DNA of 37,505 nt from a virus (IMGVR_UViG_2721755658_000003), one strand, 5' to 3'. Shown: positions 10,145-28,512, counted from the stretch's first letter. Made by a program: numbers and translations. Notes: generated by a model from the sequence alone, not told the origin.

Positions 10145-10711
10145 TCAGGGCGATTCATTGCTCTCATTCGCCGGAAATTTTCTATAAATTGTGGAAACAC
10201 CTACATCAAAAATCAGTGCAATACGCTGTCTTGATTCTCCGGCCTCGAGTAAACGTCCAATCTGTGCCCACTGTTCGGTGGTCAACTTAGGACGGCGTCC
10301 ACCTACTCTGCCTTTGGCGCGAGCTGCAGCAAGCCCCGCCCTGGTACGTTCAACTATCAGTTCGCGCTCCATTTCAGCCAGGGCCCCCATGACATGAAAA
10401 AAGAAACGGCCCATTGGGGTACTGGTATCAATACTGTCAGTCAGGCTTCGGAAATTCACGCCACGCTGGCGCAGCTCTTCTATCAGCGTAACGAGATGCC
10501 GCATACTGCGCCCCAACCTGTCCAGCTTCCAGACAACCAGAGTGTCACCTGCCGATAATGTCCTGAGCAGTTTTTTCAGTCCCGGTCTGTCGGACTTAGT
10601 GCCACTGATTTTGTCCTCAAAAATCCGCTCACATCCCGCGCAGTTCAGTGCATTACGTTGCAAATCGGTGTTCTGGTCATTTGTTGACACGCGTACATAG
10701 CCAATAAGCAT
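10145..10711 (-). CDS. serine DNA invertase, Gin/Pin/Cin/Hin family
   Basis: N-terminus MLIGYVRVSTNDQNTDLQRNAL with catalytic Ser context and C-terminal HTH; very close to Mu Gin / e14 Pin by recall; adjacent to the inversion site. Confidence 0.9.
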   Translation of the reverse strand: MLIGYVRVSTNDQNTDLQRNALNCAGCERIFEDKISGTKSDRPGLKKLLRTLSAGDTLVVWKLDRLGRSMRHLVTLIEELRQRGVNFRSLTDSIDTSTPMGRFFFHVMGALAEMERELIVERTRAGLAAARAKGRVGGRRPKLTTEQWAQIGRLLEAGESRQRIALIFDVGVSTIYRKFPANESNESP

Positions 10712-10766
10712 GATCAATCCCCTGAATAAAAACCGGGGATGATGCCAGTTAGCCGTTATCTCTGCA

Positions 10767-10792
10767 TTTTCATAAACGTTGGTTTGGGAGAA
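10767..10792. repeat. inversion crossover site 1 (gix/cix-like 26-bp site)
   Basis: TTTTCATAAACGTTGGTTTGGGAGAA; its 3' 13 bp TGGTTTGGGAGAA are an exact inverted repeat of 12679-12691, and it matches the reverse complement of 12679-12704 at 20 of 26 positions. Confidence 0.65.
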
Positions 10793-11152
10793 GCAGCGAA
10801 ACGGGGTGTGGGAACAGGGGAAAATCAGATACCGGACATGGCTTCTTTTGCCAGTGGTGATGGGTGGATGAAATTACCCAACGGGAAAATCCTGCAATAT
10901 GGTCGTGGTGCGGTTACGCCGACATTATCGACGCAAACAATGAGAATTACATTCAGCATCCCTTTTCCTAAAAAAGTGGACTGCGCCATGCTTACTCATT
11001 CTGGTGATGGTGGTGCGCCTTTAGGTGCTGGGCGGGGATTCGTGATGACCGCAGAAGGCCCAACATTAACCGGTTTTAATTCCGCTTACAGAACTGCATC
11101 AACCAGTTCCACAGTATCGATGAATTACAGTTGGTGGGCTGTTGGTGAGTAA
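10779..11152 (+). CDS. silent alternative tail-fibre C-terminal segment (Sv'-like); no own N-terminus in this orientation
   Basis: Plus-strand ORF begins at the crossover site and encodes the same GLGE junction peptide as H; would fuse to the constant part of H after inversion. Confidence 0.5.
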
Positions 11153-11163
11153 TTTTATTCAGG

Positions 11164-11616
11164 GTGATTTATATGAACGAATATGTTTATAGCGCAAGGC
11201 ATAATGCTTTTTTCCCTGTGGATATGATTGATAAATATAAATCAGAGGGATGGGATTTATCAGACGCTAAGGAAGTAAATCAAAATATTATCAGTGAGTT
11301 TATGGCTGAACCGCCACAAGGAAAAATCCGTATTGCCGGAGATGATGGGCTGCCTGCGTGGGCAGATATTCCTCCACCCACGCATGAAGAACTTATTGAA
11401 ATTACTGAATCAGAAAGACAGCTACTAATTAACCAAGCCAACGAATACATGAACAGTAAGCAATGGCCCGGTAAAGCCGCTATTGGTCGTCTGAAAGATG
11501 ATGAACTGGCGCAATATAATTTGTGGCTGGATTATCTGGACGCACTGGAACTGGTTGATTCCTCCAGTGCGCCAGATATTGAATGGCCTACGCCTCCGGC
11601 AGTTCAGGCCAGATGA
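11164..11616 (+). CDS. alternative tail fibre assembly protein (U'-like)
   Basis: 150-aa ORF inside the invertible segment, convergent with and overlapping the 3' end of the minus-strand assembly gene; true start may be the Met at 11173. Confidence 0.7.
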   Translation: MIYMNEYVYSARHNAFFPVDMIDKYKSEGWDLSDAKEVNQNIISEFMAEPPQGKIRIAGDDGLPAWADIPPPTHEELIEITESERQLLINQANEYMNSKQWPGKAAIGRLKDDELAQYNLWLDYLDALELVDSSSAPDIEWPTPPAVQAR

Positions 11617-12190
11617 CATCCGGCGCGGTGCTGGTATCTGTTGCCGTCACCGCGTCAATGTAATCCAGCACAGCGTTAAGTCGGGTGGTTTCTGCCTGCG
11701 TCAGCTTCCGTCCGGCCTGTAGTTTCAGTTGAATCAGACTGATGGAAGCCATTGCTGCATCAATCAGTGACTGGCGCAGTGCTTCTGCCGCGTCTACTGC
11801 GGCATTATGCTGTGCCTCAGTATCTGTCACCCATTTCTCACCATCCCATTCATCGTATGGCGTTAACGGGGCAATAGTGGTCGTATTTTCAGGATAATCA
11901 CCCGGACCTGTGATTTCTTTCGATTCTCCTGTTTCGGTGCTATAAACGTTTTCACCGCGATGGTCTGGCACATATTCCCATGAGTTAAAATCTGCAGAAC
12001 GGCAAATTGCATAACCAGCTTTATATGAGCCAGGAGCATCTAAACAGGAATATGCAGGGATACCGACACCCACAGCAAGATATTCAGTTGATGCAGAAAT
12101 ATACTCCCGTGTTTCACCATCATAGTTATAGACAGTAATATTCCCCGCCTTCGTGGCAATAAGCTCGCCATTTAATACAGCGTTATCCAT
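11588..12190 (-). CDS. tail fibre assembly protein (gpG-like), active orientation
   Basis: 200-aa ORF immediately downstream of H with 1-nt overlap. Confidence 0.8.
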   Translation of the reverse strand: MDNAVLNGELIATKAGNITVYNYDGETREYISASTEYLAVGVGIPAYSCLDAPGSYKAGYAICRSADFNSWEYVPDHRGENVYSTETGESKEITGPGDYPENTTTIAPLTPYDEWDGEKWVTDTEAQHNAAVDAAEALRQSLIDAAMASISLIQLKLQAGRKLTQAETTRLNAVLDYIDAVTATDTSTAPDVIWPELPEA

Positions 12191-15243: not shown

Positions 15244-15589
15244 TCTCTGCTCCTGTTGATACGGAAAGGGAAACAGGCACACCGTTATTACGCCGCCCGG
15301 TCAGCTCCACCACCATTGAACCGTCAAAATTACTGTTGATGGTGATGGAATCCAGCGTCAGCCGTGGCTCCCAGCGATTCAGCGCCACATACACTGCCGA
15401 CATGACCTGCAGGCGTAATGCCGGATTTTGTGGCTGGTCTATCAGTGCCGACAGCAGAGAACCATATTCACGACGGGCAATGCGGCTACCCTGCGGTGTC
15501 AGCAGAATGTCCCGCACCGACTGGCGCAGATGGTCAATATCAGTAATGGCTTTACCGCTGGTATTGTTCATCCCGCTATAAAGCGTCAT
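15230..15589 (-). CDS. baseplate protein (gpW-like)
   Basis: 119-aa ORF between V and J; P2 W-like size and sequence. Confidence 0.8.
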   Translation of the reverse strand: MTLYSGMNNTSGKAITDIDHLRQSVRDILLTPQGSRIARREYGSLLSALIDQPQNPALRLQVMSAVYVALNRWEPRLTLDSITINSNFDGSMVVELTGRRNNGVPVSLSVSTGAENGSD

Positions 15590-16164
15590 ACCGGGCCTCC
15601 GGTTGTGTCGCCACCTTTCAGGACGCCAGTATGCTGATGTGCATCAACCACAATTCCGTTAGAACTCATTGCACCGCCGCCCTGGGTAACGCCACCATTG
15701 ATCACTACTTCGCTGTTAATACGCGTGCGGTCAGCCTCCAGTACAAACTCACTGGTTTTCATGGTGATGTTGTCAGCGGCCTCAATGACCATTGATTTGA
15801 TGCCCCTGACATACCAGCGCCCGGTGGCGGGTTCGTATTCAAACCAGCCGCCGTCCGGGTATTCCGTCACGTTGCCGTCCTCAGAGCCTGAAGGTGGCGG
15901 AAACTGGTTTGAGTAGACCGCAGGCAGGGCAAACGCGGTTTCCAGATTGCCGCCAAGGCTGAACAGCACAACCTGCTCACCCACAGACGGTTTCCACCAG
16001 GTGCGCGATTTGCCCGCGCGCAGTGTCAGCCAGTTAATCCAGTTGGTTTCGAGGTCGCCAGTTTTCACCCGACACAGCCAGTTTGCCCTGTCCACTTCGG
16101 TGACTACACCTGTGCGGATCAGGTTGGTGATAAGGCGCATGATTTCGGTTAATTGTGCGTTCAT
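15586..16164 (-). CDS. baseplate spike/assembly protein (gpV-like)
   Basis: 192-aa ORF with conserved RAGKSRTWWKPSVGEQV segment resembling P2 V. Confidence 0.8.
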   Translation of the reverse strand: MNAQLTEIMRLITNLIRTGVVTEVDRANWLCRVKTGDLETNWINWLTLRAGKSRTWWKPSVGEQVVLFSLGGNLETAFALPAVYSNQFPPPSGSEDGNVTEYPDGGWFEYEPATGRWYVRGIKSMVIEAADNITMKTSEFVLEADRTRINSEVVINGGVTQGGGAMSSNGIVVDAHQHTGVLKGGDTTGGPV

Positions 16165-16209
16165 AGGGAAAGGTTGCCATCAATAGCAAGCAGTAGACAG
16201 CCTTTGTAA

Positions 16210-16230
16210 TTGTATTAGACATAGAACAAA
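16210..16230 (-). promoter_or_regulatory. possible late promoter element upstream of V (P_V-like)
   Basis: TTGTATTAGACATAGAACAAA fits TTGT-N12-ACAAA, but the spacing to the V start differs from the other two sites. Confidence 0.25.
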
Positions 16231-16384
16231 TGCCTTTCAATGGTCTGCGTTAGAGCATTAATACGTTGCAAAAGGTCGAATGACGTTGCGCAAGTTAAGA
16301 AGTTCAATGCTCTTAAAAAAGCACTTGAAAGCAACGCCTTTAATTATTAAAAGCCAATTAATTTAGGCGGTTACTATGTTATCT

Positions 16385-16418
16385 TTGACACAAAAGATGT
16401 TTATTGACAATATATAAG
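16385..16418 (+). promoter_or_regulatory. putative sigma70 promoter of the accessory gene
   Basis: TTGACA at 16385-16390 and a second TTGACA at 16404-16409 followed by TATATAAG; AT-rich region just upstream of the RBS AGGAG (16431-16435). Confidence 0.35.
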
Positions 16419-16442
16419 TTCAATCTAACAAGGAGAAAAATT

Positions 16443-18218
16443 ATGCCAAATGAAAATCTTGATATTGACTCAAGGACTACCGAGCAATTATACGAATGGT
16501 ATTTGCAAGGAAATTTGATAGTCAATAGACGTTATCAAAGGAAACTTGTATGGTCTCTAGAAGAAAAGACTTCTTTAATATCTTCTATGCTGCAACAATA
16601 TCCTATTCCGTTATTATTATTTGTTACCATCAATGAACAAAGAGAAATATTGGATGGAATGCAAAGATTAGAAGCAATTATGAGCTTCATCGAACAGAGA
16701 TTTTCATTAGATGGACAATATTTTGATTTGGACTCTATAGCTTTAACAAAACAACTTAAAGATAATGGAACTTTAATTCAGAAAGAACCAATCCTTTCCC
16801 GTGATTCTTCAGCAATTATTGCACGTTATCGATTTGCAATATCAGAATATAGCTCCACAAATGAAAATATTGACGAAGTATTCAGACGAATAAACTCAAA
16901 CGGGAAGATTTTATCCAAACAAGAATTACGTAGTGCAGGAACAGTTAGTAACTTCTCTGAACTGGTCAGATCGATATCAACATCGATCAGAGGTGATACT
17001 AGCCATTCTGACATTATGAATCTCCAGCAAATGCACAAAATTTCAATCAGTAACGATAGATTGGAGTACGGGGTAAATATCGATAACCACTTTTATATAA
17101 AACATCATATTTTAACAAGACGAAGTATTCGTGATTCTGATGACGAGGAATTGATAGCCAATATCCTTGCATATATCAGTCTAGAAGAAAAACCCACATC
17201 TGGGTCAACTTCTCTCGACACATTCTATGGTCAAGGAAACTCCTCTCATGCTCATGGTGTCAGACAGCAATTAGAGTCTTTCATTCAAACCAATAACGCT
17301 GCCACTATTAAGCAGAATTTCATAGCTGTATATGAATTAATTACAAGCCTATATGACGGAAAAAATGATACTTTTAGAAGCCATATTTTAGGGGAGGATA
17401 ATTCATCTCAAGAATGCCCTCGTTATTATCAAGCTGTGTTTTTGTCTATTTATGAACTTCTTTTCAACCAAAATATGCAATTAATTGATAAAGAAGGTTT
17501 ATTCTCGCAATTAAAAAACACTGGCAATACCATAATTATGGTTACCGATGGTGGCCGCTGGGCTGCAAGCACTCGTGAAAAAAGTGTTAATGATCTTGTT
17601 GCATTAATAAGTCGTTACTTCCAACCTGCTCCTCAAAAGTATGTGAATCATGCTTGGGTAACTGAAATTCGCAATCTATTAACAAATTCTAGAACTGAAC
17701 AACCAAGTTATGATTTCAAACAAGGGTTCTTTAATTTATCAGGTAAAAATGAATTTGATGATGAATGTTTAAAAGGAATATTACAAACTTGCGTAGCAAT
17801 AAATAATATTGGAAAAAGCGCAAAAGGCTATATTTTAGTTGGTATTGCCGAAAATAAATTAACCGCAGATAGAATTCAACATTTATATGGAGTAAATTCA
17901 ATTGAGTTCAATGGGTTCTATATAAACGGAATTGATCATGAAGCAATGTTAGTCTCTGGTAGCATTGATGATTACTTTATGTTAATAAAACAAAAAATAC
18001 AAGGATACAATTTCACTGAAACTCTAAAACAGCAGATACTTAAGAATATTGAGTTTTGCTCTTACAATGGCTTACACATACTCAAGATAACTATTCAGAG
18101 CACAGGTCAAATTTGCGACTTTGAGAATATGTTTTATATCAGACAAGGCTCATCGACTGATCCAGTTACGGATACACAAAACATCTCAGCTCTATTTAAC
18201 TCTTACATGAACAGCTAA
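16443..18218 (+). CDS. accessory protein: DUF262 (ParB-like/GmrS N-terminal) domain fused to an AlbA_2/Schlafen-like C-terminal domain; candidate anti-phage defence protein
   Basis: ATG at 16443 with SD AGGAG 7 nt upstream (ORF track uses an upstream TTG at 16404); N-terminal motif RRYQRKLVWSLEEK...DGMQRLEAI typical of DUF262; C-terminal DFKQG...ILQTCVAINNIGKSAKGYILVGIAENK resembles the AlbA_2 core; AT-rich, opposite strand to flanking tail genes. Confidence 0.7.
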   Translation: MPNENLDIDSRTTEQLYEWYLQGNLIVNRRYQRKLVWSLEEKTSLISSMLQQYPIPLLLFVTINEQREILDGMQRLEAIMSFIEQRFSLDGQYFDLDSIALTKQLKDNGTLIQKEPILSRDSSAIIARYRFAISEYSSTNENIDEVFRRINSNGKILSKQELRSAGTVSNFSELVRSISTSIRGDTSHSDIMNLQQMHKISISNDRLEYGVNIDNHFYIKHHILTRRSIRDSDDEELIANILAYISLEEKPTSGSTSLDTFYGQGNSSHAHGVRQQLESFIQTNNAATIKQNFIAVYELITSLYDGKNDTFRSHILGEDNSSQECPRYYQAVFLSIYELLFNQNMQLIDKEGLFSQLKNTGNTIIMVTDGGRWAASTREKSVNDLVALISRYFQPAPQKYVNHAWVTEIRNLLTNSRTEQPSYDFKQGFFNLSGKNEFDDECLKGILQTCVAINNIGKSAKGYILVGIAENKLTADRIQHLYGVNSIEFNGFYINGIDHEAMLVSGSIDDYFMLIKQKIQGYNFTETLKQQILKNIEFCSYNGLHILKITIQSTGQICDFENMFYIRQGSSTDPVTDTQNISALFNSYMNS

Positions 18219-18260
18219 TCAATCGCCATCTCCACAGGAGCTGGCTTATGGATAAAAACA

Positions 18261-18295
18261 AAAGACGAGAGGGTTATTTAAACCTCCTCGTCTTT
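18261..18295. terminator. bidirectional terminator between the accessory gene and gene S
   Basis: Hairpin AAAGACGAGAGG ... CCTCCTCGTCTTT with T/A-rich flanks on both sides. Confidence 0.5.
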
Positions 18296-18740
18296 ATTTT
18301 GATAGTTCCTCCTTTATGCTCATAATAATATTTTCTTCTGTTTTATAAGATAAGCCCAATAAAGTACGTTGCGGATATTTCGCGATTAAACCTTTTTTAT
18401 TTACGCGATCACGCAGACCGTAGTGATGAACACGGGCAATGCGCTGTACCTTGCCTTCAAACTGCACGCTGGCAGAGTCGGCGCTGGCGGAAGTTTTCAG
18501 GTATTTTGTGGTGCACAGCTTTGCAAACATCTGACGTTTGATACGGCCTTTTTTACTGCGTGCTGTTACCCGTCGCGGTTCATAACTGCTGCCATCTGGA
18601 TTGCGCTGCATTCTGATATTTTGCTGCTGTGTCCGGCGTAGTTCCTGCGCCAGCTGGCGCATCATGCGGCTTCTTGCGGCTGGCTCCAGATTAGCCAGCA
18701 AGGCACTCAGCCAGTCGTCCACTTTCTGCAGTTCAGCCAC
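18294..18740 (-). CDS. tail completion protein (gpS-like)
   Basis: 148-aa ORF; LMRQLAQELRRTQQ region resembles P2 S. Confidence 0.75.
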   Translation of the reverse strand: MAELQKVDDWLSALLANLEPAARSRMMRQLAQELRRTQQQNIRMQRNPDGSSYEPRRVTARSKKGRIKRQMFAKLCTTKYLKTSASADSASVQFEGKVQRIARVHHYGLRDRVNKKGLIAKYPQRTLLGLSYKTEENIIMSIKEELSK

Positions 18741-27072: not shown

Positions 27073-28512
27073 TCATTTTATAGAATCAAGGTTATCGGCG
27101 TTCATCATACTTTCAAAACCAGTTCCCATACGTCCATATCTAACCCCTGAATTATGCATACTCTGAGCGCCGGCCTTAACCTTCAATTTGATCTCTTGCG
27201 CTGACGCTATCCCAGCAATCATTGCTAAATATTCAAAATACTTATGCTGTGTCGCTCTTAAAAATAGTTCAGGTCTATAATTATAACTCGCATAATAAAT
27301 AGTGCATGGATACCAATAGACACCATCATTACAAAATGAATAAAAAAGAACTAGCACATCAGCCTGCATAAGATCAGAAAAGGTAATATCTTCCCTATCT
27401 GCATTTCTTTTAATTAGCTCTGCAACTGGAGAGTAATACCTTATATCTTCTTCAAAACCTGCCTGTAGCGTTTCAGAATCAGCTAAGAAAGCGCTAATTG
27501 ACACGAGTCTATGTTCCGGTGGTAACTGCCTATCACCAGAAAGGAATCTGGCAGATAAAATCGCACGTACTAATTGAAACTTCTCTAATCTAATCAATAT
27601 AGCAACTGAATATAAGAAAATTTCGTATGCAAATACCTTTTGTGCATCATACCAGTTTAATTGCCATGAACTGACATCGCTAGGAGCTTCGGTTAGTAAC
27701 AGAACTTTTTCAAAGAACTTTACTAGTTCTGTTGAAAATTCATCCTGCATCGTAAACTCTGCCTCAAGAGTTATCCATTCACACACATAATCCCTGATAG
27801 GCTTCATGGCAGCAACGTCGCTAATTATTTTCCTACCCATGCTTTGCAAATCATTTTGCTCTGGGCGAGCTCGGATTCTCATCCCGTCAAGGTACTTGAC
27901 TACTGAATCAACGAAATCACGCCGATAATAACTAACACCTGCCCTATTTTGCAAAACAGCTTGTTTCAAGCTATTAAATTTTGCGTGTGGTTCACTCACC
28001 GGATCATATTGCCCACTATCTAAATAACTGGGTCTTTTTCCAAGCTTAGGTTTTATATCTGCTGGTTTTCCATTAAGCAGCCTTACTAACCGTTCCCAAT
28101 TTTGATTTTCTTTTTCTGGTGTTGAAAGGTCAATCCATATTAACGAACTCATAAAAACAGGAAGACAAGGTTCTGAATTCTCATCAAATTCACAAACAAT
28201 AGGTATAAATTTTGATTGTTCGACTTTTGTGTAGACTTGTTGAGAGATGATCTGGGATTCTGTGCCAACCCCACTTTGTTTGTTATCAGCTTTTTTTGCG
28301 TAAACTGAATCACACATCACAAGCACATTGGTGATACTTTTATCAACAATCATTTTTTCCATGAATGCGTTTTTATCATTGCCCTCCTTCAAATCATATA
28401 TGTCAATGACAACATCCACTCCATCACTCAAAAGTCTATCAGCTATTGCTTTAACTCTTTCCTTATGAGCTGGGCTACTCCAACTATATGATATAAAAAC
28501 TTTTGGCGTCAT
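27073..28512 (-). CDS. accessory protein with N-terminal SEFIR/TIR-like domain and uncharacterised C-terminal region; candidate defence protein
   Basis: N-terminus MTPKVFISYSWSSPAHKERVKAIADRLLSDGVDVVIDIYDL matches the SEFIR/TIR_2 signature; AT-rich; lies between cos and the portal gene. Confidence 0.65.
   Translation of the reverse strand: MTPKVFISYSWSSPAHKERVKAIADRLLSDGVDVVIDIYDLKEGNDKNAFMEKMIVDKSITNVLVMCDSVYAKKADNKQSGVGTESQIISQQVYTKVEQSKFIPIVCEFDENSEPCLPVFMSSLIWIDLSTPEKENQNWERLVRLLNGKPADIKPKLGKRPSYLDSGQYDPVSEPHAKFNSLKQAVLQNRAGVSYYRRDFVDSVVKYLDGMRIRARPEQNDLQSMGRKIISDVAAMKPIRDYVCEWITLEAEFTMQDEFSTELVKFFEKVLLLTEAPSDVSSWQLNWYDAQKVFAYEIFLYSVAILIRLEKFQLVRAILSARFLSGDRQLPPEHRLVSISAFLADSETLQAGFEEDIRYYSPVAELIKRNADREDITFSDLMQADVLVLFYSFCNDGVYWYPCTIYYASYNYRPELFLRATQHKYFEYLAMIAGIASAQEIKLKVKAGAQSMHNSGVRYGRMGTGFESMMNADNLDSIK

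What the first reader, a model, noticed from the sequence alone, without database searches (positions are those of the whole stretch)
16165..18300. AT-rich single-gene insertion between baseplate gene V and tail completion gene S: DUF262 (ParB-like) plus AlbA_2/Schlafen-like fusion protein
The V-S junction is tightly packed in the P2 backbone (P2 carries only the small accessory orf30 there). Here it holds a ~590-aa gene on the opposite strand with its own promoter-like region, strong RBS and a bidirectional terminator, and with markedly AT-rich codon usage compared with the flanking tail genes. The N-terminus carries the DUF262 signature (RRYQRKLVWSLEEK...DGMQRLEAI), the domain found in GmrSD/BrxU-type type IV restriction enzymes. 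The C-terminus lacks the usual DUF1524/HNH partner and instead shows an AlbA_2/Schlafen-like core (DFKQG...ILQTCVAINNIGKSAKGYILVGIAENK). This architecture is not one of the textbook DUF262 systems, so it is a candidate for an uncharacterised prophage-encoded anti-phage or anti-MGE defence protein.
Basis: partly seen in the sequence, partly recalled or inferred. Interest (0 to 1): 0.85.

Follow-up and report, generated by a model that had tools for sequence, protein, structure and literature searches.

The report
Prophage DUF262–Schlafen anti-phage defence gene
A P2-like prophage of E. coli carries, between two tail genes, a single foreign gene that fuses a ParB-like NTPase domain to a Schlafen-type RNase domain; this fusion type was shown in 2025-26 to protect E. 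coli from phages, so this is a new, untested member of a recently described defence family, not a new kind of system.

Summary
A 591-aa gene (16443-18218, +) lies between tail genes V and S of a P2-like prophage (E. coli H7). It has 33.5% GC against about 55% in the flanks. It scores above Pfam thresholds for GmrSD_N/DUF262 (aa 26-165) and SLFN_AlbA_2 (aa 419-575). The DUF262 motifs (QR, DGxQR, FxRxN) and the Schlafen catalytic motif E419-x4-D424-x-K426 are invariant in 40 homologues.

The AlphaFold model (pLDDT 87) matches BrxU, SspE and ParB at the N-terminus, and SAMD9-AlbA_2 and SLFN5/11/12 at the C-terminus. No DUF1524/HNH nuclease domain is present.

The claim of an uncharacterised architecture is outdated. 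Perez Taboada et al. (Nat Microbiol 2026) define DUF262-Slfn fusions as a prokaryotic Schlafen class. They show that EcoSlfn7 from E. coli UC4224 defends against many phages, T7 most strongly.

I found the only DUF262-Slfn gene seen in UC4224 in a sibling prophage at the same chromosomal site, but in the portal-gpA hotspot. It is 34% identical to the window protein over the full length.

The V-S junction is itself a cargo hotspot: SIR2, TIR, FRG and P-loop NTPase genes occupy it in other strains.

Verdict: a new member of a known kind. The likely mechanism is a phage-triggered tRNase gated by the DUF262 NTPase. This is untested for this allele.

The parts
15586..16164 (-). Gene V (baseplate assembly protein V); conserved left flank of the cassette
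   Evidence: ORF list. RefSeq annotation of the identical E. coli H7 locus. Homology to the empty-site phage ends at window 16182.
16183..18400 (.). AT-rich variable segment (33.5% GC) that replaces the 68-bp V-S spacer and the 3' end of S found in empty-site relatives
   Evidence: Alignments to Escherichia phage 500465-1. GC values. Present in 28 of 1038 E. coli genomes with this backbone.
16211..16228 (-). TGT-N12-ACA dyad, the probable Ogr/Delta activator site of the late promoter pV that drives V-W-J-I-H. It lies inside the variable segment.
   Evidence: Its centre is 55.5 nt upstream of the V ATG. A single such dyad lies 54.5-57.5 nt upstream of V in all 8 P2-like loci examined, whatever their cargo. 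The annotated P2 activator site has the same geometry. Identifying it as an Ogr site rests on established P2 biology; it is an inference.
16385..16409 (+). Two perfect TTGACA boxes (16385-16390 and 16404-16409); putative promoter or operator of the cargo gene
   Evidence: Python scan. The boxes are conserved between the E. coli and Enterobacter loci within diverged spacer. They are not significant in the generic promoter scan.
16430..16435 (+). Shine-Dalgarno AAGGAG, 7 nt upstream of the ATG
   Evidence: Sequence; conserved in Enterobacter.
16443..18218 (+). DUF262-Schlafen fusion gene, 591 aa (WP_048266801.1, annotated 'GmrSD restriction endonuclease domain-containing protein')
   Evidence: Full-length PHROG family phrog_26759, E 1e-75. 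250 clusters at 50% identity with E<=1e-30; the best 150 listed are mostly 570-640 aa with near full-length matches. dN/dS 0.04.
16518..16937 (+). DUF262/GmrSD_N (ParB/Srx-fold NTPase-type) domain, aa 26-165. Includes the QR motif (Y31-Q32-R33...W37), DGMQR (aa 71-75, nt 16653-16667) and F147-x-R149-x-N151...G154.
16938..17687 (+). All-helical middle region, aa 166-415. Its first part (up to about aa 348) resembles PADLOC NsnA. Residues 261-320 and 341-400 are among the most variable in the family.
   Evidence: Secondary structure of the model. PADLOC NsnA match covers aa 9-348. Conservation profile.
17697..18167 (+). Schlafen/AlbA_2 nuclease-type domain, aa 419-575. Catalytic-type motif E419-x4-D424-x-K426 (nt 17697-17720), plus an acidic residue at position 470.
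18261..18295 (.). Hairpin (about -17 kcal/mol on either strand) flanked by an A-run and a T-run: bidirectional intrinsic terminator between the convergent cargo gene and gene S
   Evidence: RNAfold on both strands. The simple scanner missed it.
18294..18400 (-). Divergent AT-rich (28% GC) 3' end of gene S, encoding an alternative last ~35 residues. It travels with the cargo.
   Evidence: This S tail is shared with the Enterobacter prophage that carries the same cargo. It is not shared with the empty-site phage or with UC4224, which has different cargo. GC.
18294..18740 (-). Gene S (tail completion / virion morphogenesis); right flank

Best explanation
The gene is a single-protein anti-phage defence system of the prokaryotic Schlafen family, DUF262-Slfn class (pSlfn7 of Perez Taboada et al. 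2026). It is carried as lysogen-expressed cargo in the V-S hotspot of a P2-like prophage.

**Proposed mechanism.**
- The protein is made from its own promoter in the lysogen and kept inactive.
- On infection by a competing phage, the N-terminal DUF262 (ParB/Srx-fold) NTPase module, together with the variable helical middle region, senses a phage cue and switches state.
- This licenses the C-terminal Schlafen nuclease (E419/D424/K426, acidic 470) to cut tRNA in or near the anticodon arm.
- Translation falls and phage yield drops.

**Shown here.** Domain identity, intact catalytic and NTPase motifs, fold, purifying selection, mobile-hotspot location, and full-length homology to the UC4224 DUF262-Slfn protein.

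**Taken from the literature.** A DUF262-Slfn from UC4224 defends E. coli. A different class (RorSlfn5) is a trigger-activated tRNase. Other prokaryotic Schlafens are tRNases.

**Inferred only.** That this allele defends, that its substrate is tRNA, and that DUF262 is the sensor or switch.

**Cassette design.** The cassette keeps the phage viable. It carries its own copy of the pV late-promoter activator site for V, a bidirectional terminator, and a replacement 3' end for S.
For: **Domains, motifs and fold**
- Both Pfam domains score above their gathering thresholds.
- E419, D424, K426 and D71, G72, Q74, R75 are invariant across 40 homologues down to 37% identity.
- The model is confident (pLDDT 87, pTM 0.83).
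- Structural matches at the N-terminus are BrxU, SspE and ParB. At the C-terminus they are SAMD9-AlbA_2, SLFN5, SLFN11, SLFN12 and SLFN13.

**Relation to the validated protein**
- The UC4224 prophage protein WP_028985442.1 has the same two Pfam domains.
- It aligns end to end with the window protein at 34% identity, E 2e-87.

**Literature**
- CRISPR-associated Schlafens cleave tRNA (PMC13462974, abstract).

**Genomic context**
- The same family sits at V-S in Enterobacter prophages.
- It sits in the classical portal-gpA defence hotspot in Serratia and in UC4224.
- It sits in an integrase-bounded island in Vibrio.
- Other V-S cargo matches PADLOC SIR2, TIR, PDC-S49 and PDC-S15 models.

**Gene integrity and cassette**
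- dN/dS is 0.04.
- The pV dyad is retained in every cargo variant.
Against: - No experiment exists for this allele.
- It is only 34% identical to the validated protein.
- Five of the seven pSlfn genes tested in PMC13056530 gave no protection on the phage panel, so architecture alone does not guarantee activity in E. coli K-12.
- The mechanism of the DUF262-Slfn class itself (trigger, substrate, role of NTP) was not studied in that paper. tRNA cleavage is extrapolated from pSlfn5, Cash and human SLFNs.
- The best structural match of the C-terminal domain is the SAMD9 AlbA_2 domain solved bound to DNA, so a DNA substrate is not excluded.
- The SLFN_AlbA_2 Pfam score is only just above threshold (27.5 against 25.3).
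- That WP_028985442.1 is EcoSlfn7 is an inference. The paper's supplementary tables were not available, and only the large plasmid and the prophage of UC4224 were inspected.
- PADLOC (2023) has no full-length model; it hits the N-terminal part only.
Confidence: 0.6

Rival explanations
1. It is a type IV-restriction-like DNA-directed enzyme. As in GmrSD, BrxU and SspE, the DUF262 NTPase would recognise modified or foreign DNA. The AlbA_2/Schlafen domain would replace DUF1524/HNH as a DNA-binding or DNA-cutting module, so the target would be incoming phage DNA and not tRNA.
For: - The DUF262 domain with all canonical motifs is structurally closest to BrxU, SspE and DndI.
- NCBI annotates the protein as GmrSD-domain-containing.
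- PADLOC hits PD-T4-2_A and a restriction-enzyme model over the N-terminus.
Against: - The defining nuclease of GmrSD (DUF1524, His-Me finger) is absent.
- The conserved C-terminal motif is the Schlafen RNase active site Ex4(E/D)xK.
- The validated homologue is most active against T7 and T3. To my knowledge their DNA lacks hypermodified bases.
- Every prokaryotic Schlafen with a described substrate in the papers found here (RorSlfn5, Cash) cleaves tRNA.
Confidence: 0.15
2. It is not primarily an anti-phage gene. It would be a maintenance, addiction or regulatory factor of mobile elements, for example a toxin-like stabiliser or an AlbA-type nucleic-acid-binding regulator. It would benefit the prophage or plasmid directly.
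For: - A 69%-identical paralogue sits next to the pemIK addiction module on IncF plasmids, in about 800 of 5426 E. coli genomes.
- Pseudomonas and Aeromonas homologues are solitary genes without defence neighbours.
- In the published survey, 30% of pSlfn genes are not near known defence genes.
Against: - There is no partner antitoxin gene in the cassette.
- The gene is patchily present (28 of 1038 backbones), and occupies slots that otherwise hold SIR2, TIR, bSEFIR and PDC-type genes.
- A same-family protein has a measured anti-phage phenotype.
- The plasmid copy is frequently truncated by IS elements without loss of the plasmid. This argues against an essential maintenance role.
Confidence: 0.1
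3. It is a decaying or inactive passenger gene with no current function.
For: IS1 has interrupted the gene in 2 of the 28 E. coli carriers. Many plasmid paralogues are truncated.
Against: - The reading frame is intact in 26 of 28 carriers, at 98.7-100% identity.
- dN/dS is 0.04 against Enterobacter alleles.
- Catalytic and NTPase motifs are invariant across phyla.
- The family keeps a near-constant length of mostly 570-640 aa.
Confidence: 0.05

Closest known systems
EcoSlfn7, the DUF262-Slfn fusion of E. coli UC4224 (pSlfn7 class; Perez Taboada et al., Nat Microbiol 2026, PMC13056530). Presumed to be WP_028985442.1.
   Same: - Same two-domain architecture and length (589 against 591 aa).
- End-to-end alignment with the window protein.
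- Intact Ex4(E/D)xK and DGxQR motifs.
- A single gene with no partners.
- Carried by a P2-like prophage integrated at the same ybjL/rcdA site.
   Different: - Only 34% identical.
- It lies in the portal-gpA (old/tin) hotspot and not at V-S.
- It is found in 3 of 5426 complete E. coli genomes, against 28 for the window allele.
- EcoSlfn7 has a measured phenotype; the window allele has none.
- The identification of WP_028985442.1 as EcoSlfn7 is inferred.
RorSlfn5 (Schlafen-Ig-like fusion, Raoultella ornithinolytica)
   Same: It has a Schlafen nuclease domain with the same catalytic motif. It is a single-gene, sensor-plus-effector design. It is the only pSlfn in that paper with a mechanism worked out: trigger binding leads to cleavage of the tRNA anticodon arm.
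   Different: The nuclease is N-terminal and the sensor is an Ig-like domain that binds a T5 tail assembly chaperone. It has no NTPase domain. Its specificity is narrow (T5 only).
GmrSD / BrxU / SspE (DUF262-DUF1524 type IV restriction and phosphorothioate-sensing nickases)
   Different: There is no DUF1524/His-Me-finger nuclease; the C-terminus is a Schlafen/AlbA_2 domain. Sequence similarity to BrxU is confined to short motif stretches.
Human SLFN11/13/14 and SAMD9 (AlbA_2/Schlafen antiviral tRNases)
   Different: The bacterial protein has a single Schlafen lobe and not the two-lobed horseshoe. The sensor domains are unrelated (helicase or multidomain SAMD9 against DUF262). Sequence identity is 8-17%.
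P2 orf30 and other cargo of the S-V junction in P2-like phages
   Same: Same slot: between the end of the S-containing late operon and the pV activator site. P2 orf30 is also on the opposite strand and non-essential.
   Different: There is no sequence similarity to orf30. Orf30 has no PADLOC match.
Menshen NsnA (PADLOC PDLC03877)
   Same: It is the best PADLOC hit (E 3e-23), covering aa 9-348, that is DUF262 plus part of the helical region.
   Different: The hit does not cover the Schlafen domain. In my recollection Menshen is a three-gene system (NsnA, NsnB, NsnC); I did not check this here. The window cassette holds only this one gene.

Membership tests
Prokaryotic Schlafen defence proteins, DUF262-Slfn class (pSlfn7) | Schlafen/AlbA_2 nuclease domain detectable by profile and by fold | tested here: met
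Prokaryotic Schlafen defence proteins, DUF262-Slfn class (pSlfn7) | Catalytic Ex4(E/D)xK motif | tested here: met
   E419-QPSY-D424-F-K426. E419, D424 and K426 are invariant in 40 homologues. Motif definition from PMC13056530.
Prokaryotic Schlafen defence proteins, DUF262-Slfn class (pSlfn7) | Fusion to a DUF262 domain in the same polypeptide | tested here: met
   Pfam PF03235, E 1.7e-17, aa 26-165.
Prokaryotic Schlafen defence proteins, DUF262-Slfn class (pSlfn7) | Homology to the validated member (EcoSlfn7, E. coli UC4224) | tested here: met
   34% identity over 581 aligned residues, E 2e-87, to the DUF262+SLFN_AlbA_2 protein of the UC4224 prophage. Caveat: that this protein is EcoSlfn7 is inferred. 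The large UC4224 plasmid has no DUF262 gene.
Prokaryotic Schlafen defence proteins, DUF262-Slfn class (pSlfn7) | Protects cells against phage infection | not testable with these tools
   Requires plaque or burst assays.
Prokaryotic Schlafen defence proteins, DUF262-Slfn class (pSlfn7) | Trigger-dependent tRNA cleavage | not testable with these tools
   Not shown even for EcoSlfn7 in the paper. Shown for RorSlfn5 only.
GmrSD/BrxU-type type IV restriction enzymes | N-terminal DUF262 NTPase domain with conserved motifs | tested here: met
GmrSD/BrxU-type type IV restriction enzymes | C-terminal DUF1524 (His-Me finger/HNH) endonuclease domain | tested here: not met
   No DUF1524/HNH family appears in the Pfam scan at E<=1. 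The C-terminal fold is AlbA_2/Schlafen. The RefSeq name 'GmrSD restriction endonuclease domain-containing' reflects the N-terminal domain only.
GmrSD/BrxU-type type IV restriction enzymes | Modification-dependent DNA cleavage | not testable with these tools
   Biochemistry required.
Menshen (NsnABC) | NsnA-like protein accompanied by the other components of the system (NsnB and NsnC, as I recall the system; not checked here) | tested here: not met
   The NsnA profile matches aa 9-348 only. The cassette contains a single gene between V and S.
Accessory (moron) cargo of the P2 S-V junction | Located between S and V, dispensable (present or absent among close relatives), with atypical composition | tested here: met
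   Empty site in phage 500465-1 and in most relatives. 28 of 1038 backbones carry it. GC 33.5% against about 55%. P2 orf30 is at the same site.

The most novel reading that the evidence does not exclude
This allele may represent a distinct clade of DUF262-Slfn proteins: 34% identical to EcoSlfn7, 69% to a paralogue on IncF plasmids, and with relatives reaching Vibrio and cyanobacteria. In this clade a ParB/Srx-fold NTPase would act as a nucleotide- or nucleic-acid-gated switch for a Schlafen tRNase. That coupling has not been resolved for any member. The trigger or phage range could differ from EcoSlfn7.

In addition, the V-S junction would be a self-contained 'plug-in' defence hotspot of P2-like phages. 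Each cargo would bring its own pV late-promoter element, terminator and S gene 3' end.
Probability: 0.35. Interest if true: 0.55.

Novelty: new member of a known kind. Interest (0 to 1): 0.35.

Why it matters
**Defence biology.** Prokaryotic Schlafens were recognised as anti-phage effectors only in 2025-26. The DUF262-Slfn class has a phenotype, but its trigger, its substrate and the role of its NTPase domain are unknown.

This locus adds a second, divergent E. coli member, in a prophage that is a sibling of the one carrying the validated gene. A third lineage sits on IncF plasmids, in about 15% of complete E. coli genomes. Together these form a natural comparative set for mapping specificity determinants. 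The variable helical region and the C-terminal end are the obvious candidates.

**Phage genome organisation.** The S-V junction of P2-like phages behaves as a defence-cargo slot that preserves late-operon function. SIR2, TIR, FRG, P-loop NTPase and DUF262-Slfn genes all occupy it.

**Annotation.** RefSeq's 'GmrSD restriction endonuclease domain-containing protein' is misleading for this family.

Tried and rejected
1. **NCBIfam.** No model matched.
2. **Hidden DUF1524/HNH nuclease.** None appeared in the Pfam scan at E<=1, and there were no such structural hits.
3. **Generic promoter/terminator scan.** Promoter-like sites were no more frequent than in shuffles, and the scan missed the real hairpin. 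I replaced it with direct folding and comparative conservation.
4. **Supplementary tables of the Schlafen paper and preprint.** I looked for the EcoSlfn7 accession or WP_048266801, but the tables are not held.
5. **EcoSlfn7 on plasmid pUC4224_1.** I read the whole 111.8-kb plasmid; it has no DUF262 gene.
6. **Low-coverage chromosomal blastn hits (PCN033, SB0258h1).** These are IS-flanked fragments of the IncF paralogue inside resistance regions, not independent chromosomal homologues.
7. **Homology to P2 orf30.** None.
8. **Full-length homologues in deposited phage genomes and in BFVD.** Only matches to the DUF262 part were found.
9. **TGT-N12-ACA as a window-wide signal.** It occurs at chance frequency, 10 observed against 10 expected. 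Only its fixed position upstream of V across loci is informative.
10. **P2 hotspot literature.** I searched for an explicit description of the S-V slot or of DUF262/Schlafen cargo. I found only coarse statements ('within the tail genes', 'downstream of GpL') and no mention of DUF262 or Schlafen.
Full report
**What is there**

The window is a complete P2-like prophage of E. coli strain H7 (NZ_CP010171.1), integrated between ybjL and rcdA. Tail genes V (15586-16164, -) and S (18294-18740, -) flank one ORF on the opposite strand, 16443-18218, encoding 591 aa from the ATG. RefSeq names it WP_048266801.1, 'GmrSD restriction endonuclease domain-containing protein'.

GC is 33.5% for the gene, 55.8% for V and 54.7% for the conserved part of S. 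An AAGGAG Shine-Dalgarno lies 7 nt before the ATG. A hairpin at 18261-18295 (about -17 kcal/mol on either strand) has an A-run before it and a T-run after it. It separates the two convergent genes.

A generic sigma-70 scan finds no excess of promoter-like sites in this AT-rich DNA. However, two perfect TTGACA boxes (16385, 16404) and the SD stand out as conserved islands when the spacer is aligned with the Enterobacter version of the locus.

- Escherichia phage 500465-1 and many Klebsiella and E. coli relatives have V and S only 68 bp apart.
- Of 1038 complete E. coli genomes with this backbone, 28 carry the gene.
- Homology to the empty site stops at 16182 on the left.
- On the right it resumes only at about 18400, inside gene S. 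The last ~35 codons of S are AT-rich (28% GC) and encode a different C-terminus.
- The Enterobacter prophage with the same cargo has the same alternative S tail. The empty-site phage and a prophage with different cargo do not.

I infer that the cassette is exchanged by recombination within the flanking genes, not by precise insertion.

The variable segment also contains a TGT-N12-ACA dyad (16211-16228) centred 55.5 nt upstream of the V start codon. A single dyad of this kind sits 54.5-57.5 nt upstream of V in all eight P2-like loci I examined, whatever the cargo. The annotated Ogr activator site of P2 pV has the same geometry. So every cargo variant keeps a late promoter element for the V operon. 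This fits, because the terminator after the cargo would otherwise cut V off from upstream transcription (inference).

**What the protein is**

- *Profile hits.* Pfam gives GmrSD_N/DUF262 (aa 26-165, E 1.7e-17) and SLFN_AlbA_2 (aa 419-575, 27.5 bits against a cut-off of 25.3). NCBIfam gives nothing.
- *PADLOC.* It matches only the N-terminal part: NsnA over aa 9-348, and PD-T4-2_A.
- *PHROGs.* There is a full-length family of unknown function, phrog_26759, E 1e-75.
- *Family size.* An exhaustive search finds 250 clusters at 50% identity with E<=1e-30. The 150 best are mostly 570-640 aa with near full-length matches. Named members come from Enterobacterales, Vibrio, Aeromonas, Pseudomonas, Comamonas, Sulfitobacter and cyanobacteria.
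- *Invariant residues.* In 40 homologues down to 37% identity, the invariant residues include the DUF262 motifs (Y31-Q32-R33...W37; D71-G72-x-Q74-R75; F147-x-R149-x-N151...G154). They also include E419, D424 and K426. The latter three form the Ex4(E/D)xK Schlafen active site defined by Perez Taboada et al.. Position 470 is acidic in the window protein and in the family consensus.
- *Conservation profile.* The two catalytic cores are the most conserved parts. The helical middle (aa 261-320 and 341-400) and the C-terminal end (aa 536-591) are the most variable.
- *No GmrSD nuclease.* No DUF1524/HNH domain is present.
- *Selection.* dN/dS against the Enterobacter allele is 0.04.

**What is already known**

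[quoted passage not shown] DUF262 fusions make up 1.8%.

The authors tested seven Enterobacterales genes under native promoters. The DUF262-Slfn fusion of E. coli UC4224 (EcoSlfn7) reduced plating of a broad range of phages, 538-fold for T7. The preprint names T3 and T7 as most affected. The mechanism was worked out only for another class, RorSlfn5. There, an Ig-like sensor binds a T5 tail assembly chaperone and the nuclease then cuts the tRNA anticodon arm. Later papers report further prokaryotic Schlafens in defence. CRISPR-associated Cash proteins cleave tRNA, SLFN-pAgo fusions protect cells, and an Enterococcus Schlafen confers defence.

**Relation of the window protein to EcoSlfn7**

The paper's tables were not available, so I searched UC4224 itself. 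Its accession (NZ_CP104472.1) turned up in a spread sample of V-S junctions.

- The large plasmid has no DUF262 gene.
- The chromosome carries a sibling P2-like prophage at the same ybjL/rcdA site.
- In that prophage, a 589-aa 'DUF262 domain-containing protein' (WP_028985442.1) lies between the portal gene and gpA, the classical old/tin defence hotspot.
- That protein has both Pfam domains and an E-x4-E-x-K motif.
- It aligns end to end with the window protein at 34% identity, E 2e-87.

I take it to be EcoSlfn7; this is an inference. It occurs in only 3 of 5426 complete genomes, namely UC4224 and two closely related UC strains (UC4315, UC4316). In the window's prophage, the portal-gpA slot instead holds a bSEFIR gene (PADLOC E 2e-104).

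**Context across elements**

- Alleles 89% identical to the window protein sit at the V-S junction of Enterobacter prophages.
- Alleles 68-72% identical sit in the portal-gpA hotspot of Serratia P2-like prophages.
- A 59% allele lies in an integrase-bounded element in Vibrio that also carries a CI-type repressor and a replicase/primase gene.
- Pseudomonas and Aeromonas copies are solitary.
- A 69%-identical paralogue (WP_001262766.1) lies next to pemIK on IncF plasmids in about 800 of 5426 E. coli genomes. It is often truncated near nt 1283 by IS elements.

**The V-S junction is a cargo hotspot**

In an evenly spaced sample of backbone matches, 31 junctions were empty and 22 held other genes. 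I examined four of these:

- a SIR2 protein (ThsA/LmuA-like);
- a TIR protein (PDC-S66/SpbK-like);
- a P-loop NTPase that matches PADLOC PDC-S49 over its full length;
- an FRG protein matching PDC-S15.

The P2 hotspot literature mentions defence cargo 'within the tail genes' and 'downstream of GpL' only coarsely. It does not mention DUF262 or Schlafen.

**Mechanism, and how sure I am**

Most likely (0.6), this is a lysogen-expressed, single-protein defence system. The DUF262 NTPase and the variable helical region would sense a phage cue and license the Schlafen nuclease to cleave tRNA.

- *Shown:* domains, motifs, fold, selection, mobility and family membership.
- *From the literature:* the defence phenotype of a family member, and tRNase activity of other Schlafens.
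- *Inferred:* activity, substrate and switch for this allele.

Three rivals remain:

- a type IV-like DNA-directed enzyme (0.15). The DUF262 kinship and the SAMD9-DNA structural match favour it. The missing DUF1524, the RNase motif and the T7/T3 sensitivity of EcoSlfn7 count against it;
- a maintenance or regulatory role (0.1);
- a decaying passenger (0.05). dN/dS and motif invariance contradict this.

**Verdict**

The architecture is no longer uncharacterised, so this is a new, divergent and untested member of a known kind.

The residual interest lies in three things: the unresolved mechanism of the DUF262-Slfn class, the natural trio of E. coli lineages, and the plug-in organisation of the S-V hotspot.

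Noticed in passing
window 27073-28512 (-): A second defence gene in the same prophage. It is a 479-aa SEFIR-domain protein matching PADLOC bSEFIR (E 2e-104), and it lies in the portal-gpA (old/tin) hotspot. The sibling prophage of UC4224 carries the DUF262-Slfn gene in that slot instead.
   Followed up: partly
L020-L023 (E. coli GPEC1222, GN02461, APEC IMT5155, ETEC4067), V-S junction; sample: The V-S junction of related prophages holds other single-gene cargo: SIR2 (ThsA/LmuA-like), TIR (PDC-S66/SpbK-like), a P-loop NTPase (PADLOC PDC-S49, full length), FRG (PDC-S15), DUF6216 (also in BL21), and several hypothetical proteins. In the sample, 31 junctions were empty and 22 occupied. Cargo occurs on either strand.
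   Followed up: partly
window 16211-16228; also L002, L003, L018, L020-L023: Every locus has exactly one TGT-N12-ACA dyad, centred 54.5-57.5 nt upstream of the V start codon, although the surrounding sequence differs with the cargo. Window-wide the pattern occurs at chance frequency. However, other copies fall upstream of the sheath gene (10079) and between the divergent capsid-scaffold and terminase genes (24180, 24238), where P2 late promoters are expected.
   Followed up: partly
L012:6001-7773 (pUMNK88_K88) and about 850 plasmid places in E. coli: A 69%-identical full-length paralogue (WP_001262766.1) lies directly downstream of pemI/pemK on IncF plasmids. Only 132 of 816 genomes keep at least 80% of the gene. 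Most copies stop at about nt 1283, or keep only nt 1275-1608. This suggests a recurrent IS insertion that separates the DUF262 part from the Schlafen part.
   Followed up: partly
E. coli CFSAN064035 and 22AR0322 (hits H3/H4, H58/H59): In 2 of the 28 E. coli carriers, the prophage gene is interrupted by IS1B.
   Followed up: no
L024:541-1059 (Enterobacteria phage GEC-3S) and other Krischvirus phages: T4-like Krischvirus phages encode a 172-aa hypothetical protein, two genes downstream of a DNA methyltransferase gene. A stretch of it is 37-38% identical to residues 16-91 of the DUF262 domain. It could be an ordinary ParB-like protein or a decoy against DUF262 defences. I did not explore this.
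   Followed up: no
L018:20658-21317 (UC4224, V-S junction): UC4224's own V-S slot holds a 219-aa hypothetical protein with only a sub-threshold DUF3112 match. Its stop overlaps the end of S by 4 nt.
   Followed up: no
L025:2311-16054 (Vibrio chagasii): A 59%-identical homologue lies in an integrase-bounded element that also carries a CI-type repressor, a CP76-like gene and a replicase/primase gene. This resembles a phage satellite or small integrative element.
   Followed up: no
window 10145-10711 (-) and adjacent 10742-12190: A recombinase-family gene lies next to oppositely oriented tail-fibre and tail-fibre-assembly gene fragments. This is a probable invertible host-range segment of the prophage. 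I took it from the RefSeq annotation of the identical locus.
   Followed up: no
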